Positions 5,764 to 12,423 of a stretch of 32,000 nt of DNA are shown here, one piece after another (the stretch's first letter is position 1; each line of letters opens with the position of its first letter). The position numbers were made by a program, and so were the translations under genes. Source of the DNA: Xylella taiwanensis (GTDB lineage: Bacteria > Pseudomonadota > Gammaproteobacteria > Xanthomonadales > Xanthomonadaceae); assembly GCF_013177435.1 (NCBI RefSeq), contig NZ_CP053627.1, forward strand, positions 750,001 through 782,000, read 5' to 3'. A model generated the notes under the pieces. It saw nothing but the letters and a program-made list of their open reading frames with translations, was not told the DNA's origin and ran no database searches.

Positions 5764-7026
5764 GTGAAGGATCTGTTCCGCAAAGAAGTACTTGAGGCAA
5801 AGCGCACAAGTTGGCTTGGTGGTATCTCTTTGATCCAACCAATTAAAGCATGGTTGTTAGTGCTGGCATCCAGCATGATGGCGCTGTTAGTTGTGCTGTT
5901 TCTCTGCTTAGGGACTTACACCCGTAGGTCCAGCGTAACGGGGCAACTCGTGTCATCTAAAGGACTGGTGACGGTAGTAGCACCTGCTACGGGTACAGTA
6001 AGCCAGATCAAAGTGTCCGAGGGAACTAATGCACTTTCTGGGCAGATACTTGCATTGGTGACAGTGCCGCGGACTACTGTTACCAGTGGTGATGCCACCA
6101 GGGCCTTGGAACAGCGGTTACAGGAGCGGAGGCAGGGGTTGTCGATGAGTCAACAAGCTCAGATGCAAGTGCTATCCGCGCAAACATCAGGCATTGAAGC
6201 GCAACTGAGTGCCGCACAACGTGAGTTGGCACAGATCGAAATTGAGATTGCGACTCGTCAGAAACAGATACAGATTGCCAACGAAACTTTACAGCGCTTG
6301 AAGCAGTTGGAGGATGCGCGTTACGTGGGCACACTGCAAATCAAACAACAGGAGTCCACCGTACTGGACTACACCAGCCAAATGCAGGCAATGCAACGCC
6401 AAGCCATCATGACTCGACGGTCTATTGCTCAGTTGCAACAATCCTTAAGGGAATTGCCGGGGCAGTATCAGAATTCCGAGGCAAACTACCGACGCGAACT
6501 GGCGCAACTGGAGCAGGAACAGGTAGAAACCGAGGCTCGTGGTGCGCTTTCTGTAGTTTCCCCAATCGATGGAGTCATTGCTACCCAGATTGTCAAGCCT
6601 CAGCAAACAGTGCAGGCAGGGCAACCAATGTTGAGTTTGTTACCAGTAAATGGTGAGTTGGAAGCAGAACTCCTCTTGCCGAGTCGCGCCATTGGTTTTA
6701 TTGAGCAAGGTGATGAGGTTCGTTTACGTTACCAAGCTTATCCGTATCAGAAATTCGGTCATCAACGTGGTCGAGTGTCTAGAATTAGTCGTAGTGCATT
6801 GACTTCAGGTGAGCTTGGAGCATTAATCGGTGATACCCGACAAGCCGAACCGTATTACCGAGTTATAGTGAAGATTCCCCAACAGTCCATCACAGCCTAT
6901 GGTCGGCAGGAACCTTTAAAACCTGGAATGTTGATTGATGCTGATATTCTTAGCGAAAAACGTCGATTAATCGAATGGATATTCGAACCATTGTACTCGT
7001 TGCGAGGAAAGGTTAGTAATAATTGA
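5764..7026 (+). CDS. cvaA: HlyD-family membrane fusion / bacteriocin secretion protein (CvaA-like), 420 aa
   Basis: The N-terminus LFRKEVLEAKRTSWLGG followed by a single TM segment and then GTYTRRSSVTGQL parallels E. coli CvaA (FRQDALENRKMKWQG ... GTYSRRVNVSGEV). It also has a long coiled-coil centre and the C-terminal motif LSEKRRLIEWIFEPLY. The start is GTG, with no clear SD. Confidence 0.9.
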   Translation: MKDLFRKEVLEAKRTSWLGGISLIQPIKAWLLVLASSMMALLVVLFLCLGTYTRRSSVTGQLVSSKGLVTVVAPATGTVSQIKVSEGTNALSGQILALVTVPRTTVTSGDATRALEQRLQERRQGLSMSQQAQMQVLSAQTSGIEAQLSAAQRELAQIEIEIATRQKQIQIANETLQRLKQLEDARYVGTLQIKQQESTVLDYTSQMQAMQRQAIMTRRSIAQLQQSLRELPGQYQNSEANYRRELAQLEQEQVETEARGALSVVSPIDGVIATQIVKPQQTVQAGQPMLSLLPVNGELEAELLLPSRAIGFIEQGDEVRLRYQAYPYQKFGHQRGRVSRISRSALTSGELGALIGDTRQAEPYYRVIVKIPQQSITAYGRQEPLKPGMLIDADILSEKRRLIEWIFEPLYSLRGKVSNN

Positions 7027-7244
7027 TTTTTCAAATAATAATATGAAATGGGTTTGAATATATAAATGGGTATGTTTTTTAGGTATTATTTTGTTATACG
7101 CAAATGCGTAAGATGCTGAGCTTCGAAAGTAAGGAGATATTTTCTAAGAATAAATTAATTTTATTTATTTCCTTTTTATTTTCTTATGTAATTTCAACTC
7201 TTCAAAATTAAGCTGTGTTAGACCAACTTATAGGAATGGATCAA

Positions 7245-7478
7245 ATGCGTGAACTCGCTGCACAAGAAATTGGAAACGTTGATGGTGGCGTTTACATATT
7301 GAATTTAAATTATGGAGGTTTTTCAAGAAATCCTTTTTTAGCATTTTTGGGGATCGGAAATACGGCGATTGCGGTAAACTTTGGTCGAGGTGGATCTTCC
7401 TTTTACAGCAGGCCAACACTTAATATCGACAATGTAAATGTTATTAACGTCACTCAGGAAATACATCAACCAGTCTGA
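7245..7478 (+). CDS. Double-glycine-leader peptide A (77 aa; leader 15 aa + core 62 aa), bacteriocin/microcin-like PCAT cargo
   Basis: The leader MRELAAQEIGNVDGG matches the ColV-type pattern, with hydrophobic residues at -4, -7 and -12, Glu at -8 and GG at -2/-1. GGA lies 9-10 nt upstream of ATG 7245. Upstream in-frame starts at 7236 (ATG) and 7215 (GTG) are possible but would lengthen the leader atypically. The gene lies between cvaA and cvaB. Confidence 0.75.
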   Translation: MRELAAQEIGNVDGGVYILNLNYGGFSRNPFLAFLGIGNTAIAVNFGRGGSSFYSRPTLNIDNVNVINVTQEIHQPV

Positions 7479-7671
7479 AGATTGGGGCGTTGTTTTATAG
7501 CCGTTCGCTAAATCTGGGGAAGATGATGAATTGTTAAGGAACATGCAGAAGCGATTGAAGCAAGGAAGATGAAAACTTCCTACTCCTGATGGGGTTGCTT
7601 TTTATTATTTTCTGCAATCCTCCTCCTTATTTTCATTATCTCCATAATAACTGACTATGGAAATGAATCAA

Positions 7672-7962
7672 ATGCATGAACTTTCTGTCCAAGAAATCAA
7701 AAACGTTGGTGGTGGCTTTTTCTTTGTTCTTTTTCCTGAGAGTTTTTCAAACGCGACTATTTCATCTGTTACGTTTGGATCTATTCCGAGTAGAACTCGT
7801 CCGTTTGAATCTCTTTCGATACCAGAACCTGTTGTCTCCGGACCTATTTCCTCCGGAATAGGCATTTTTGGAACTGGCACTGGATTTCTAAGGACTTCCA
7901 GCCGACATGTTTCTATCGGCACCGTAAATATTTACAATATTGACCAACAGATCACTCTATAA
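7672..7962 (+). CDS. Double-glycine-leader peptide B (96 aa; core 81 aa), PCAT cargo
   Basis: The leader is MHELSVQEIKNVGGG. An alternative start at 7657 would add MEMNQ. The core is Ser/Pro/Gly-rich and ends in TVNIYNIDQQITL, a motif shared with peptides A and C. Confidence 0.75.
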   Translation: MHELSVQEIKNVGGGFFFVLFPESFSNATISSVTFGSIPSRTRPFESLSIPEPVVSGPISSGIGIFGTGTGFLRTSSRHVSIGTVNIYNIDQQITL

Positions 7963-8162
7963 CATCACCTTATTCAAGGAATAACTCAGCGAATTTTAAA
8001 ATTGGAGCCGTTATTTTATAACAGTTCTTGCTAAATCTGAGTAAAAATGATGAATCATTAAGGAGCATGCAGAATGATCCAAGCAAAGGAAGAAGATGAA
8101 ATGAAAGCTTTCTGCAACTTTCCTCCTTATTTTCATAATAATCGATCATGGAAATGAATCAA

Positions 8163-8426
8163 ATGCGCGAACTTTCTGTCCAAGAAGTAAAAAACGTTGA
8201 TGGCGGCTTTTTATTCTTTGTTTCCTCAGGTATATCTTCCCCTGAAATTATTTCGCCTGTTTCACCTGTTGCGTTCAGCCCTTATCCGTCGTCTGGGGGG
8301 TTTCCTTTTAAATCTGATGGATCCAGTGCAAGCCTTTTGGGATATAATCTTGGAAAACTCGTCGTACAAGAGTTTTTTGTGCGACGTGTAAATGTTTATA
8401 ACATCACTCAAGTAATAAATAAATAA
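8163..8426 (+). CDS. Double-glycine-leader peptide C (87 aa; core 72 aa), PCAT cargo
   Basis: The leader is MRELSVQEVKNVDGG. An alternative start at 8148 would add MEMNQ. The core is Ser/Pro-rich and ends in RVNVYNITQVINK. Confidence 0.75.
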   Translation: MRELSVQEVKNVDGGFLFFVSSGISSPEIISPVSPVAFSPYPSSGGFPFKSDGSSASLLGYNLGKLVVQEFFVRRVNVYNITQVINK

Positions 8427-8637
8427 CATCACTCAAGAAGTAATTCAGCGAAGTATTGGTTTTATAGTTTTTCTCAGTCAAAATAGACAGAGATGATGAA
8501 TTATTAAGGGGTATGCGGGGTAATCTAAGCATAATTAAGATGAAAACTTCCTGTTGTTAATGGAGTGACTCTTTATCGCTTCCTGCAATCTCCCCTTAAT
8601 TTTCATTGTCTTAATATTTACTGTTGGTATTAATTAA

Positions 8638-8868
8638 ATGCGTGAACTTTCTTTCCAGGAAATCGAAAACGTTGAGGATGGTTGCTGTGGAATTATTATT
8701 GGATGCGCAATTGGTGGAGCCGTAGTTGTAGGAGCAGCTGTTGTTACAACTGTTGCTATTAGAGTTATAGCTCTTTATTGGAATTGGGGAAACGTTGCGT
8801 TCAATCTCCAACCTTGTGCTTCCAATAATGGTTGCAGTCAAAATGTTGTCAAATATGAATGTAAATAG
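8638..8868 (+). CDS. Leader-bearing hydrophobic Cys-containing peptide D (76 aa), colicin V/class II microcin-like
   Basis: The leader MRELSFQEIENVEDG is collinear with those of A-C but has Asp-Gly at -2/-1. The core CCGIIIGCAIGGAVVVGAAVVTTVAIRVIALYWNWG... is Gly/Ala/Val-rich with six Cys, including a C-terminal CASNNGC...YECK cluster. Confidence 0.75.
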   Translation: MRELSFQEIENVEDGCCGIIIGCAIGGAVVVGAAVVTTVAIRVIALYWNWGNVAFNLQPCASNNGCSQNVVKYECK

Positions 8869-9052
8869 TGTCACCCGAGGACTAAATTAACCAACCTGAA
8901 GATTTGGTGTGTTGGTTTTATGGTCGTTCCTAGTTAAAATCGGTGAAGGTGGTGAATACTAAAGGGTATGTAGGGATTATAGAAACATAAAAAAACACTG
9001 TACTTTCAATACTAACACTACTAATTTAAATATAAATTTTAATGACTTAGAA

Positions 9053-9305: not shown

Positions 9306-11417
9306 ATGAGACCTGTTTTGCAATCTGAGGTCAGTGAATGTGGCTTGGCTTCGCTGGTGATGCTAGCGAACGCTCATGGCAAGCATCTGAGCCTATCCCA
9401 GCTTCGTCAGCGTTTTCCTTCATCCCTTAAAGGCGCCAAACTGACTCATCTGGTTCATATTGCACAACAGCTTGGCTTTTCTACTCGTCCACTGCGCCTG
9501 GATATGGAAGATCTGAATAAGCTTAAACTGCCTTGCGTTCTGCACTGGGATCTCAACCACTTTGTGGTGCTGGCAAAAGTCGGTACCACTAAGGCCACCA
9601 TTTATGACCCAGCCATCGGCAAGCGAAAGCTTTCACTCAATGAAGTGTCAAAATACTTCACTGGTATAGCCCTTGAATTGACACCTACGACCGAATTCAA
9701 GCAACAGAAAGCACCTCCTTCGATCTCAGCACGTCAGTTGACCGGTCCGATCCGAGGATTGTGGAGGGCTTTGGCCCAGATTCTGTTATTGTCGCTAGCT
9801 TTACAGGTCTTTGCAGTGCTGTCGCCTTTCTACATGCAATGGGTCGTGGATCAGGTATTGGTCTCGGCTGATCGCGATCTGCTGGTGGTACTGGGATTGG
9901 GCTTCGGATTGGCGCTGTTGCTTCAGATCGCCATCGGTTTGTTTCGTGGCTGGTCAGTGGTCTACCTGTCGTCAAGGCTTGGCCTGCAATGGATGGCTAA
10001 CGTGTTCGCACATCTGTTGAAGCTGCCATTGGAGTACTTCGAAAAGCGCCATCTTGGAGACTTGACTTCTCGCATGTCTTCGGTGCAATCGATCCAGAAA
10101 ACGTTGACCACCAGTTTCGTTGAAGCGATTATTGACGGGCTGATGACGATCGTCACACTGGGTTTGATGCTCGTTTACAGTTGGAAGCTGGCATTGGTCA
10201 CATTGGTAGCGGTGGTGTTGTACCTGCTCATCCGTGCCATTTCATACTGGCCAGTACGCGACTGTACCGAGCAGCAATTAGTTGTTGGTGCAAAACAGCA
10301 GAGCCATTTGCTGGAATCACTACGTGGCATTCAAAGTTTGAAAGTGGCAGGTGAAGAGTCGCTACGCCGTTCTACTTACGACAACCTACTCAACAACACG
10401 GTCAACCAAGAAGTGCGATTGGCACGCATGTCATTGGGTTTCTCGAGCGCTAGCCAACTTGTGTTCGGACTGGAGCGCATCGGAGTGATCTGGTTAGGTG
10501 CGAAATTGGCGTTGGACAACGTATTCTCGGTCGGCATGTTGATCGCCTATTTATCCTACAAAGATCAGTTCACTTCGCGGATCTCTAGCTTGATTGATAA
10601 GTGGGTTGAGTTCCGCATGTTGCGCCTACATGGCGAACGGTTGGCTGATATCGTCTTGACCTCTCCGGAGGAGGACTACGAATTGCCGGAAATGCAGCTA
10701 CCGAAAAAAGAACCAGATATCGAAGTGGATGGATTGTCGTTCCGCTATGGTGAAGGTGAACCATGGATATTGAAAGATTGCAGCTTCAAAATCGCAGCGG
10801 GCGAATCGGTGGCAATCATTGGTGCCTCGGGCTGCGGTAAAACGACACTGATGAAGTTGCTGCTTGGGTTGCTGAAACCTACCACAGGTACGATACGTAT
10901 TGGTGGGCGGGATTTACATAAATTCGGCGCACGTAATGTGCGTTCGGTTGTTGGTGCGGTGATGCAAGATGATCAACTCTTTGCGGGTAGCGTCGCTGAT
11001 AACATCAGTTTTTTTGATCCGGACTTCGACCTGGAGCGTATTGAAGCGGCAGCGAAGTTAGCCGCAATCCATGACGATATCGCCGCGATGCCAATGGGGT
11101 ATCACGCGTTGATCGGCGATATGGGCAGTGCGCTATCCGGCGGACAGAAGCAACGTGTTATCTTGGCCCGTGCGCTTTACCGCCACCCCAAGTTGCTGTG
11201 CCTGGACGAGGCAACCAGCCATTTGGACGTCACGCGAGAGCGCTTAGTCAACGAGGCGGTACACCAGTTAAAACTGACCAAAGTGATTGTGGCACACCGC
11301 CCGGAGACCATTGCTAGTACGGATCGTGTCGTCATTTTGGATCATGGACGGATCGTGCAAACAGTGGCAATGCCAACAGATCATCAAGAGTCAATCGAAA
11401 TGGTGCAGAACACGTGA
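9306..11417 (+). CDS. cvaB: Peptidase C39 domain-containing ABC exporter (PCAT; CvaB-like bacteriocin processing/export ATPase), 703 aa
   Basis: N-terminal C39 motifs are present: catalytic Cys in QSEVSECGLASLVML (codon 9339-9341), His in HWDLNHFVVL, and then IYDP. A six-helix exporter TMD follows. The NBD has Walker A GASGCGKTT, signature LSGGQKQR and Walker B LLCLDEATSHLD. Confidence 0.93.
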   Translation: MRPVLQSEVSECGLASLVMLANAHGKHLSLSQLRQRFPSSLKGAKLTHLVHIAQQLGFSTRPLRLDMEDLNKLKLPCVLHWDLNHFVVLAKVGTTKATIYDPAIGKRKLSLNEVSKYFTGIALELTPTTEFKQQKAPPSISARQLTGPIRGLWRALAQILLLSLALQVFAVLSPFYMQWVVDQVLVSADRDLLVVLGLGFGLALLLQIAIGLFRGWSVVYLSSRLGLQWMANVFAHLLKLPLEYFEKRHLGDLTSRMSSVQSIQKTLTTSFVEAIIDGLMTIVTLGLMLVYSWKLALVTLVAVVLYLLIRAISYWPVRDCTEQQLVVGAKQQSHLLESLRGIQSLKVAGEESLRRSTYDNLLNNTVNQEVRLARMSLGFSSASQLVFGLERIGVIWLGAKLALDNVFSVGMLIAYLSYKDQFTSRISSLIDKWVEFRMLRLHGERLADIVLTSPEEDYELPEMQLPKKEPDIEVDGLSFRYGEGEPWILKDCSFKIAAGESVAIIGASGCGKTTLMKLLLGLLKPTTGTIRIGGRDLHKFGARNVRSVVGAVMQDDQLFAGSVADNISFFDPDFDLERIEAAAKLAAIHDDIAAMPMGYHALIGDMGSALSGGQKQRVILARALYRHPKLLCLDEATSHLDVTRERLVNEAVHQLKLTKVIVAHRPETIASTDRVVILDHGRIVQTVAMPTDHQESIEMVQNT

Positions 11418-12423
11418 CAATGATGATGGCGATTGCTGTGATATGCAGCGGTCCAATCATTAAATGCTTGATCATCTTATCGTTTTCAGCATTGTGTTGC
11501 GTTTCATCGCCATAGCATATCTGGCTCATTTGAAAGCCTTGAAAGCTTGGATGGAGAATTGCGCTTGTTTATGAGGCGTCTCATTGGGCTGCTAAGTGTA
11601 GAACGTGGCTATATTGATGCCGTGTCAGTGTAATAACGCCGCTATCGTTCATCTGGTTGTGCCCCGCTTGCTGGCATCTATGCTTGGGTTGCCAGTGAAT
11701 CAGGATATTTTGATTGAGAAAGAATCTGTCTGGAAAATGACTGTTTCTTCAGGGTATTTGTTTTATGTGTGGATGATGGGTTAACTTTTTTTGACGAAGA
11801 TCGGCTGATTATCTAAGCACAGCAAAAGCGGCTCCTTGACTCGCTTGATTTACAAAATCAGGTGATTGTGGCATGTCGATATTGTGCTTACCTGAATCTT
11901 GCCGTTAGCGGTGATTATGATTGACCGAGATGCCAACCTTTAACACGGAAGCGTTACTGTACTCCTGTGGTTGTTAATTGCAGTCATCAGGGTACCGTGT
12001 GATAGTCGGATGATAGCTTGGTTTCGATCACCCCCGGGATCTATTGGACCAGATCAGTGGGGTTTGTCATACACGTTACGCTGAATGCTCATGTTTGGCC
12101 CATAGCCCGTGCTCTGGGCTTCATTGATTCAGATGCCGATGTCGACAAGAACAAACCCGAACTATAGGCTGTGTTTGTGTCATGGTTGTTCATGATGGAT
12201 GGATATCCCCAACAGCAATTCGGCGTTTGATCTATTTTTTTGTTCGTCACTTCGTTGTTTATTCGTGTTTCCTTTTGGAAGTTACATCTGCGCATAAATT
12301 CAGAGGGGTATAACAATCTGCATGTTTGGTCTCCCAAGTACGTAGTGATTATTAAACTCTCACAGAGTCTAGGCTTGGTACAAAGCAATCAATTCAAGAG
12401 GATTTCAGCCTTGCAATCCTGAC

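What the first reader, a model, noticed from the sequence alone, without database searches (positions are those of the whole stretch)
7245..8426. Peptides A-C form a paralogous family with a conserved leader and a conserved C-terminal VN[VI][YI]N[VI][TD]Q tail around hypervariable, non-microcin-like cores
After the leader, the three cores start with an aromatic/hydrophobic patch (VYILNLNY, FFFVLF, FLFFV). They then diverge almost completely in sequence and length (62, 81 and 72 aa). They re-converge on a shared C-terminal motif: A DNVNVINVTQEIHQPV, B GTVNIYNIDQQITL, C RRVNVYNITQVINK. The codons of this motif differ at synonymous positions (Tyr TAC/TAT, Asn AAC/AAT, Gln CAG/CAA, Ile ATT/ATC/ATA). 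This argues for selection on the amino-acid sequence rather than a mere recent DNA duplication. The cores lack Cys, Trp and Met and are Ser/Pro/Gly/Phe-rich (for example SSPEIISPVSPVAFSPYPSSGGFPF), unlike the Gly/Ala-rich cores of ColV-type microcins. A conserved C-terminal module with a variable middle recalls the modular organisation of class IIb microcins, which carry a conserved C-terminal uptake/modification module. It could be a receptor-recognition or beta-strand docking element, since the alternating N-V-N-V-I-N-V pattern fits a strand. This interpretation is my inference.
Basis: partly seen in the sequence, partly recalled or inferred. Interest (0 to 1): 0.8.

Follow-up and report, generated by a model that had tools for sequence, protein, structure and literature searches.

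The report
Xylella secreted-peptide trio with shared tail
Three neighbouring small genes in the plant pathogen Xylella taiwanensis encode export-tagged peptides that share a leader and a short C-terminal motif kept by selection on the protein. They match uncharacterised X. fastidiosa genes already flagged as putative microcins, and the shared motif is one end of a larger repeated DNA unit.

Summary
Peptides A (7245-7478), B (7672-7962) and C (8163-8426) have 15-residue double-glycine leaders, cores with no detectable similarity to one another, and a shared tail V-N-x-[YI]-N-x-x-Q.

The window is Xylella taiwanensis. The peptides are orthologues of X. fastidiosa XF1217, XF1218 and XF1219. They lie between a CvaA-like adaptor and a C39-peptidase ABC exporter.

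Selection on the tail's amino-acid sequence is supported. Orthologue dN/dS is 0.1-0.4, and third codon positions vary most (Fisher p=0.0009).

- The cores are not hypervariable. Between species they evolve under purifying selection (dN/dS 0.16-0.51), and they are nearly invariant among X. fastidiosa strains.
- DNA conservation does not stop at the tail. Tail, the ~190-210-nt spacer and the next leader form one repeated module (z = 10-28). Cores show nothing (z ≤ 2.3).
- A fourth unit, D, has an unrelated Cys-rich core and keeps an untranslated, out-of-frame tail relic. This argues for core replacement inside a constant frame.

The class IIb microcin analogy fails: there is no Ser-rich end and no modification genes. 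The family is restricted to Xylella. No fold, immunity gene or tail function could be established.

Verdict: modest interest, a new variant of a known kind.

The parts
5764..7026 (+). HlyD/CvaA-like membrane-fusion (periplasmic adaptor) protein, 420 aa
   Evidence: Pfam HlyD_3 E=3.6e-17; NCBIfam type_I_hlyD E=1.2e-42
7245..7478 (+). Peptide A precursor (XF1217 orthologue). Leader 7245-7289 (MRELAAQEIGNVDGG), core 7290-7433, tail 7434-7475 (VNVINVTQEIHQPV), stop 7476-7478 sitting in the loop of a terminator-like hairpin (7470-7485).
   Evidence: (P0003, 100% identity)
7479..7671 (+). Spacer A-B. Non-coding constant module holding the ATGATGAATNATTAAGG box (7523-7539) and the block TTCTGCAATC..CCTTATTTTCAT.
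   Evidence: Local DNA similarity to spacers B-C and C-D, z=28; box found 3 times, only in the array; alignments
7672..7962 (+). Peptide B precursor (XF1218 orthologue). Leader 7672-7716 (MHELSVQEIKNVGGG), core 7717-7923, tail 7924-7959 (VNIYNIDQQITL).
   Evidence: (P0002)
7963..8162 (+). Spacer B-C, including an untranslated second tail-like copy just after the B stop (7964-7993).
   Evidence: the repeat finder families D3, D5, D7; z=28 and 10 against the other spacers
8163..8426 (+). Peptide C precursor (XF1219 orthologue). Leader 8163-8207 (MRELSVQEVKNVDGG), core 8208-8387, tail 8388-8423 (VNVYNITQVINK). A 25-nt tandem duplication (AACATCACTCAAG at 8400-8412 and 8425-8437) creates the stop.
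   Evidence: D2, D5; P0001
8427..8637 (+). Spacer C-D, a constant module that begins with the second, out-of-frame tail copy (8423-8452).
8638..8868 (+). Peptide D: a family-type leader ending EDG, then an unrelated Cys/Gly/Ala-rich hydrophobic core (61 aa).
   Evidence: (its only database match is itself; UniRef names it 'class IIb bacteriocin, lactobin A/cerein 7B family')
8852..8907 (+). Orphan A-type tail relic (reads NMNVNSVTRGLN* in a frame different from D) plus a hairpin CCAACCTGAAGATTTGG and a T-rich run. The X. fastidiosa counterpart lies entirely downstream of the D stop.
   Evidence: the repeat finder D4: 71% identity over 56 nt to 7431-7486
9306..11417 (+). Peptidase-containing ABC transporter (PCAT, CvaB-like), 703 aa, with an N-terminal C39 domain.
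   Evidence: Pfam Peptidase_C39 E=5e-35, ABC_membrane, ABC_tran; NCBIfam NHLM_micro_ABC1 E=4.6e-150

Best explanation
This is the Xylella cvaA-[peptide array]-cvaB locus. A, B and C are orthologues of X. fastidiosa XF1217, XF1218 and XF1219.

Export (inferred from family knowledge). Each peptide is made with a 15-residue double-glycine leader. The C39 domain of the adjacent ABC exporter recognises the leader and cuts after GG. The mature 6.8, 8.7 and 7.8 kDa peptides leave through the exporter, the HlyD-like adaptor and a TolC-type outer-membrane channel.

Shared ends (shown). The mature peptides share a short aromatic or hydrophobic N-terminal stretch. They also share a C-terminal motif [V]-[N/K]-x-[Y/I/T]-[N/S]-x-x-Q, which is maintained by selection on the protein.

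Role of the tail (inferred). I think the tail is most likely a common strand-forming element used after export. It could dock on one shared target-cell receptor or uptake component, or it could drive self-association. The unrelated cores would then supply different activities, as in the modular toxic-plus-uptake layout described for class II microcins.

Array organisation (shown). The array is built from a constant junction (tail, then a ~190-210-nt spacer, then the next leader) that flanks variable cores.

Core replacement (inferred from the relic). Unit D shows that a core can be replaced inside this frame, leaving the old tail as an untranslated relic.
For: Identity. P0001, P0002 and P0003 from X. 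taiwanensis are 100% identical to C, B and A. Synteny typA-DUF2127-HlyD-A-B-C-D-PCAT holds in X. fastidiosa and a Xylella sp. MAG. The gene table of the 2025 preprint gives XF1216 (HlyD), XF1217, XF1219 and XF1220 (C39 ABC) in that order.

Export machinery and leader. C39, ABC and HlyD domains are present. The leader residues L-12, E-8, I/V-7, V-4 and GG are kept in 16 sequences.

Expression and secretion of the orthologues. XF1217 and XF1219 are in X. fastidiosa secretomes. XF1217 and XF1218 are among the most abundant transcripts.

Tail under protein-level selection. Evidence comes from NG86 dN/dS and the excess of third-position variation, p=0.0009. The tail core is kept in all 30 or so X. 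fastidiosa alleles.

Constant and variable parts. Spacers give z=10-28 while cores give z<=2.3 at DNA level, about 0 at protein level, and hhalign probability <1%.

Core replacement. The orphan tail after D is present in both species. D of X. taiwanensis has no homologue, not even X. fastidiosa D.
Against: No antibacterial activity, receptor or structure is known for any member. AlphaFold2 models are unreliable: pLDDT 37 and 47, and the tail is not modelled as a strand. No immunity-like gene was found next to any unit, which is unusual for microcins. The tail is only 8-11 residues long. In X. fastidiosa A it relaxes to VNATSITQ, so the alternating N-V pattern is not strictly required. Spacer conservation is unexplained, so part of the tail's DNA conservation could have a non-protein cause.
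Confidence: 0.55

Rival explanations
1. The peptides are not toxins. They are secreted, beta-prone, self-assembling peptides (functional-amyloid or matrix-like) that contribute to Xylella aggregates or biofilm. The N-terminal aromatic strand and the N/Q/V/I/Y-rich tail would be the zipper segments.
For: No immunity gene was found. The orthologues are very highly and constitutively expressed and abundant in the secretome. The composition is Cys-free and rich in Ser, Gly, Phe and Asn, with high strand propensity. The low-confidence AlphaFold2 model of A is all-beta. The cores are conserved rather than racing, and dN/dS is well below 1.
Against: There is no direct evidence of assembly. The locus type (PCAT plus adaptor, with a MccV-like hydrophobic peptide D in the same array) is the classical bacteriocin arrangement. 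AlphaFold2 did not model the tail as a strand.
Confidence: 0.2
2. The tail is conserved mainly as DNA or RNA. It is the 5' edge of a repeated regulatory or terminator module, or it is homogenised by gene conversion. It has no peptide function of its own.
For: Similarity continues past the stop codons through the whole spacer. Untranslated tail copies persist after B, C and D. The A stop codon sits in the loop of a terminator-like hairpin. Spacer similarity does not follow positional orthology: Xtai_BC scores 81 against XfP_AB but 32 against XfP_BC, which hints at recombination.
Against: The tail shows a clear three-base periodicity of variation and dN/dS <1. The reading frame and the residues V, N, N/S and Q are retained in 12 gene copies from three species, and in all strain alleles. 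No consensus RNA structure, Rfam match or Fur box was found. Tails and leaders do not cluster by species, as recent gene conversion would predict.
Confidence: 0.12
3. The tail is a follower or recognition sequence for a maturation enzyme. That would fit RiPP-like leader-core-follower precursors, or class IIb-like C-terminal modification. The tail would be modified or removed in the mature product.
For: The conserved-variable-conserved precursor layout is typical of such systems (own knowledge, not tested here). The conserved Asn and Gln residues could be modification sites.
Against: There is no modifying or second processing enzyme in the 32-kb window; the neighbours are housekeeping genes. 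The tail has no Ser-rich end. The cores are 48-69 residues, which is long for RiPP cores. Related PCAT loci in other Lysobacterales carry ordinary Gly/Ala-rich peptides.
Confidence: 0.08

Closest known systems
X. fastidiosa XF1217 / XF1218 / XF1219 (PD0497 / PD0498), hypothetical proteins between cvaA (XF1216) and cvaB (XF1220)
   Same: They are direct orthologues (64-70% identity) with the same order, leader, cores and tail. XF1219 was listed as a double-glycine peptide. XF1217 and XF1218 were called 'newly identified microcins' and are highly expressed. XF1217 and XF1219 were found in secretomes.
   Different: Nothing differs in kind. In the papers I could read, the shared tail, the constant-junction architecture and the orphan tail after D are not described.
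Class IIa microcins exported by CvaAB/TolC (MccV/ColV, MccL, MccN, MccS, MccPDI)
   Same: They share the double-glycine leader, the PCAT plus HlyD-type adaptor, and an unmodified mature peptide under 10 kDa. MccV and MccL are reported to share a homologous C-terminal region, and MccH47 and ColV to have a toxic-plus-uptake modular layout (own knowledge, not tested here).
   Different: A-C have no sequence similarity to any microcin family. They have no Cys or disulfide and are Ser/Pro/Phe-rich rather than Gly/Ala-rich. There is no adjacent immunity gene. The shared C-terminal element is only 8-11 residues.
Class IIb (siderophore) microcins: MccE492, MccH47, MccI47, MccM
   Same: A conserved short C-terminal element is shared by peptides with different bodies.
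   Different: The class IIb tail is Ser/Gly-rich and carries a salmochelin-type moiety added by dedicated enzymes (own knowledge). Here the tail is V/N/I/Y/Q-rich and no such genes are present.
Xylella CvaC-like colicin V precursors (XF0262-XF0264)
   Same: Same organism, double-glycine leaders, tandem paralogues, very high expression.
   Different: They are at a different locus with an annotated immunity gene (cvi) and MccV-like sequences. The profile search with A-C did not retrieve them.
Precursor families with conserved flanks and variable cores (prochlorosin ProcA paralogues; Amanita MSDIN leader-core-follower)
   Same: Paralogous genes have conserved ends and cores that share no similarity. 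This suggests decoupled evolution of the constant and variable parts (own knowledge).
   Different: Those are enzyme-modified RiPPs with short cores. Here there are no tailoring enzymes, the cores are 48-69 residues, and they are stable between species.

Membership tests
PCAT-exported double-glycine-leader peptides (class II microcin-type cargo) | N-terminal leader of about 15 residues with conserved hydrophobic and acidic positions, ending GG/GA/GS | tested here: met
   MRELxxQE[IV]xN[VI]xGG is kept in A-D of three species. There is a weak match to the N-terminus of PF10439 (E=0.17).
PCAT-exported double-glycine-leader peptides (class II microcin-type cargo) | Encoded next to an ABC transporter with an N-terminal C39 peptidase domain and a HlyD-type adaptor | tested here: met
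   PF03412 E=5e-35, plus ABC_membrane and ABC_tran, at 9306-11417. HlyD_3 / TIGR01843 at 5764-7026.
PCAT-exported double-glycine-leader peptides (class II microcin-type cargo) | Mature product below about 10 kDa | tested here: met
   6.8, 8.7 and 7.8 kDa after GG.
PCAT-exported double-glycine-leader peptides (class II microcin-type cargo) | Actually cleaved at GG and secreted | not testable with these tools
   Indirect only: orthologues XF1217 and XF1219 were detected in X. fastidiosa extracellular fractions. The cleavage site has not been shown.
Class II microcins (functional definition) | Antibacterial activity against related bacteria | not testable with these tools
   The papers I read contain no assay. 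A preprint cites 'functional and expression data' from a source I could not access.
Class II microcins (functional definition) | Dedicated small membrane immunity gene adjacent to the structural gene | tested here: not met
   No conserved ORF was found in the spacers on either strand. The candidate minus-strand ORFs differ in length (18-59 aa) and are broken by indels that are not multiples of three. Nothing suitable lies in the flanks.
Class IIa microcin sequence families (MccV, MccL, MccN, MccS, MccPDI) | Detectable sequence similarity of the core to a known family | tested here: not met
   Pfam and NCBIfam gave none. PDB gave none. A profile search of 1.84 billion proteins found only Xylella sequences.
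Class IIb siderophore-microcins | Conserved Ser/Gly-rich C-terminal segment of about 10 residues ending in Ser | tested here: not met
   The tails read VNVINVTQEIHQPV, VNIYNIDQQITL and VNVYNITQVINK.
Class IIb siderophore-microcins | Glycosyltransferase, esterase and acyltransferase maturation genes in the cluster | tested here: not met
   The other ORFs in the 32-kb window are GST, Mdh, PPIase, TypA, DUF2127, an ABC-2 transporter, PilY1, HrpB, GAF and TamA.
RiPP-type leader-core-follower precursors | A tailoring or second processing enzyme encoded with the precursors | tested here: not met
   The only processing enzyme is the C39 domain of the PCAT.
XF1217-XF1219 orthologue group of Xylella | Significant full-length similarity and conserved synteny | tested here: met
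   E=1e-10 to 1e-34. The gene order is identical in L001-L009.

The most novel reading that the evidence does not exclude
The array is a built-in cassette system. The constant tail-spacer-leader junctions would act as recombination joints that let unrelated cores be swapped in, as happened for D. The tail would be a portable tag that delivers or assembles whatever core it is attached to. Alternatively, A-C are not bacteriocins at all but a Xylella-specific family of PCAT-exported, self-assembling beta peptides involved in xylem biofilm.
Probability: 0.15. Interest if true: 0.7.

Novelty: new variant of a known kind. Interest (0 to 1): 0.4.

Why it matters
Xylella is a quarantine plant pathogen, and these peptides are among its most abundant transcripts and secreted products, yet their function is unknown. 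Knowing that three unrelated cores share one selected C-terminal motif gives a concrete handle: tail deletions or tail swaps, receptor screens and assembly assays. Such experiments could decide whether the peptides are competition weapons or matrix components. The constant-junction architecture and the orphan tail after D also illustrate how new cargo can be captured by an existing export leader. That is relevant to microcin discovery pipelines, which currently rely on Gly/Ala-rich models and would miss this family.

Tried and rejected
- Fur box in the conserved spacer box: the best 19-mer match is 13/19, no better than shuffles. Rejected.
- Conserved RNA structure in the spacers: RNAalifold found 0 pairs. 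Rfam gave only a chance snoRNA hit.
- Small ORFs in the spacers on the plus strand (MQKRLKQGR*, MKTSYS* and similar) and the minus strand (MKIRR.....LNNSSS..): lengths and frames are not conserved, so I rejected them as genes.
- Immunity genes in the flanks: none found.
- Residual homology between cores: none, whether by hhalign, Smith-Waterman on DNA and protein, or a frameshift check through DNA similarity.
- Recent gene conversion of leaders or tails: there is no clustering by species.
- Structure: AlphaFold2 on B with the family alignment gave pLDDT 37, and on A with its orthologues 46.7. These were too poor for a fold search, so none was run.
- PDB sequence search: nothing.
- The search for related loci with the peptide alignment failed because no stretch was conserved enough.
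- The PCAT query returned 80 Lysobacterales and Burkholderiales loci. Their leader-bearing peptides are Gly/Ala-rich or otherwise unrelated, and none has an A-C core or tail.
- Zaini et al. 2008 (iron stimulon) could not be read.

Full report
**What is there**

The window carries, on the plus strand:
- a HlyD/CvaA-like adaptor (5764-7026);
- four small ORFs with double-glycine-type leaders: A 7245-7478, B 7672-7962, C 8163-8426 and D 8638-8868;
- an ABC transporter with an N-terminal C39 peptidase domain (9306-11417).

The region 7001-9000 has 36-37% GC, against about 50% around it. The neighbours are housekeeping genes: typA, a DUF2127 gene, an ABC-2 transporter, PilY1, HrpB and TamA.

Peptides C, B and A are 100% identical to hypothetical proteins of Xylella taiwanensis (P0001-P0003).

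**Check of the observation**

- The leader is MRELxxQE[IV]xNVxGG.
- The mature lengths are 62, 81 and 72 aa, and none contains Cys, Trp or Met.
- The tails are VNVINVTQEIHQPV, VNIYNIDQQITL and VNVYNITQVINK, with the stated synonymous differences.
- The tail motif occurs three times in all six frames of the window, only at these C-termini. A 24-nt consensus never matches in shuffles.
- Between paralogues the cores are unalignable: hhalign probability below 1%, protein Smith-Waterman z about 0, DNA z at most 2.3.

The likely start codon is the ATG of MRE(L). A GGA/GGAG-like stretch lies 8-12 nt upstream, which gives 15-residue leaders (inference).

**Identity and what is already known**

The same locus, in the same order and between typA-DUF2127 and the ABC-2 transporter, is present in X. 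fastidiosa subspecies and in a Xylella sp. MAG.

It corresponds to XF1216 (HlyD), XF1217, XF1218, XF1219 and XF1220 (C39 ABC) of strain 9a5c, and to PD0496-PD0499 of Temecula1. What the papers say:
- XF1219 was listed among double-glycine peptides of Gram-negative bacteria.
- XF1217 and XF1219 were detected in X. fastidiosa extracellular proteomes.
- A 2025 preprint calls XF1217 and XF1218 'newly identified microcins' and ranks them among the most abundant transcripts.

So expression and secretion are supported for the orthologues. In the papers I could read I found no description of the shared tail.

**Is the tail selected as protein?**

Yes.
- Nei-Gojobori estimates between X. taiwanensis, X. 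fastidiosa and the MAG give tail dN/dS of 0.10-0.37 wherever dS is finite. Tail pN is 0.08-0.30 against pS of 0.29-1.0.
- Across 12 tails, the mean column entropy is 0.47, 0.59 and 1.12 at codon positions 1, 2 and 3.
- Within orthologue groups, the variable sites number 5, 7 and 16 of 24 at positions 1, 2 and 3 (Fisher p=0.0009).
- The core of the motif survives in all strain alleles of X. fastidiosa. The residues after Q-E vary or are lost: the commonest C allele ends ...VKIYNIIQE.
- In X. fastidiosa A the motif relaxes to VNATSITQ.

The selected element is therefore about [V/L]-[N/K/R]-x-[Y/I/T]-[N/S]-x-x-Q.

**The cores are not hypervariable**

Between species the cores have dN/dS of 0.16-0.51, similar to the leader and the tail. 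Among X. fastidiosa strains they differ by at most a few residues. The complete dissimilarity exists only between paralogues.

**The tail is one end of a larger repeated DNA module**

Similarity among units does not end at the stop codon.
- It continues through the ~190-210-nt spacers into the next leader (repeat finder families D1-D7; alignments).
- Spacer pairs give local-alignment z-scores of 10-28, and the region after D gives 7.5-9.
- A box ATGATGAATNATTAAGG occurs three times in the window, once in each of the three internal spacers.
- B and C carry a second, untranslated tail-like copy just after their stops. In C a 25-nt tandem duplication creates the stop.
- After D there is an A-type tail with its hairpin (8852-8907, 71% identical to 7431-7486). 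It reads NMNVNSVTRGLN* in a frame different from D.
- In X. fastidiosa the homologous relic (KNVNNISLKNIN*) lies wholly downstream of the D stop.
- D has the family leader but an unrelated Cys/Gly/Ala-rich hydrophobic core. The X. taiwanensis version has no homologue in 5.8 billion proteins, not even X. fastidiosa D.

I read this as a core replacement inside a pre-existing leader/tail frame (inference).

Spacer similarity does not follow positional orthology. For example, Xtai B-C scores 81 against Xf A-B but 32 against Xf B-C, while Xf A-B against Xf B-C scores 18. That suggests recombination between junctions or differential deletions. Leaders and tails do not cluster by species, so recent gene conversion is not evident.

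**What the spacers do is unresolved**

I found no consensus RNA structure, no Rfam family, no Fur box above chance, and no conserved ORF on either strand. Terminator-like hairpins follow A (its stop codon lies in the loop) and D. Promoter-like matches are no more frequent than in shuffles.

**Distribution and relatives**

A profile of nine family members, searched against 1.84 billion representative proteins, retrieved only Xylella sequences plus one spurious repeat protein. Eighty loci encoding 52-80% identical PCATs in Lysobacterales and Burkholderiales carry, where a leader peptide is recognisable, Gly/Ala-rich or otherwise unrelated peptides. None has an A-C core or tail. Pfam, NCBIfam and PDB give nothing for the cores.

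**Structure**

AlphaFold2 gave pLDDT 37 for B and 46.7 for A. The A model has four beta strands in the core, and the tail is unstructured. These models are not reliable and I did not use them for fold searches.

**Mechanism**

Inferred from established knowledge of PCAT systems:
- the C39 domain binds the leader and cleaves after GG;
- the exporter, the adaptor and a TolC-type channel release the mature peptides.

Shown by the sequences: the three cargoes share a selected C-terminal motif and, in B and C, an FFFV-type N-terminus.

My inference, with low certainty: the tail serves a step common to all three after export. It could be docking to one receptor or uptake component, or self-association. 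The cores would provide distinct activities.

The absence of any immunity gene and the very high constitutive expression keep a non-toxin, self-assembly role open. The class IIb analogy is rejected because both defining features are absent.

**Verdict**

The genes are known but uncharacterised, and the kind of system (double-glycine cargo of a PCAT) is well known. What is new:
- the selected tail;
- the constant-junction and variable-core architecture, with spacers better conserved than the coding cores;
- the orphan tail that documents a core replacement.

I rate interest at 0.4.

Noticed in passing
window 8638-8868: Peptide D has the family leader, but the leader ends EDG instead of GG (X. 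fastidiosa has HGG; the MAG has VG followed by CCCC). Its core is Cys-rich and hydrophobic. The X. taiwanensis version has no homologue in the 5.8-billion-protein database other than itself.
   Followed up: partly
window 8400-8437: A 25-nt tandem duplication (AACATCACTCAAG ... AACATCACTCAAG) inside the 3' end of C introduces its stop codon. A degenerate second copy is also present in the Xylella sp. MAG, and B has an equivalent post-stop copy at 7964-7993.
   Followed up: partly
window 7523-7539, 8047-8063, 8493-8509: The box ATGATGAATNATTAAGG occurs once in each of the three internal spacers and nowhere else in the 32 kb. It is not a Fur box, and its function is unknown.
   Followed up: partly
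window 7001-9000: The peptide array is AT-rich (36-37% GC) compared with about 50% in the flanking export genes and the chromosome.
   Followed up: no
L006 4421-4522 and 4805-4970: The Xylella sp. MAG has an extra leader-bearing mini-unit after C (MEINEVRELAIQNLENCGRCFFLFPFIVVLVIG*). Its D gene appears frameshifted: 36 aa, then a D-like YVNWGSFDCTPQP... in another frame.
   Followed up: partly
L007 3934-4167; proteins P0037-P0047, P0012, P0013: X. fastidiosa C exists as 77-aa and 79-aa alleles that differ by a 1-nt indel in the tail (...IIQE* against ...IIQEVN*). Frameshifted or truncated A alleles also occur in a few assemblies.
   Followed up: partly
L001-L009, B orthologues: The X. fastidiosa B leader ends in G-A (NVDGA|FFFV) whereas X. 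taiwanensis B has GGG. UniRef labels one B-orthologue cluster 'Dirigent protein', but no Pfam domain is recorded for that protein and B itself gave no Pfam hit.
   Followed up: no
window 11418-12423: About 1 kb downstream of the PCAT has no convincing ORF (the longest is 99 aa on the minus strand, with no obvious features) before the convergent ABC-2 transporter genes.
   Followed up: no
L010-L089: Close PCAT homologues (up to 80% identity, for example in Xanthomonas albilineans) are widespread in Lysobacterales. Where a leader peptide is recognisable, it is a Gly/Ala-rich or otherwise unrelated double-glycine peptide. So the exporter is conserved while the cargo family is Xylella-specific.
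   Followed up: partly
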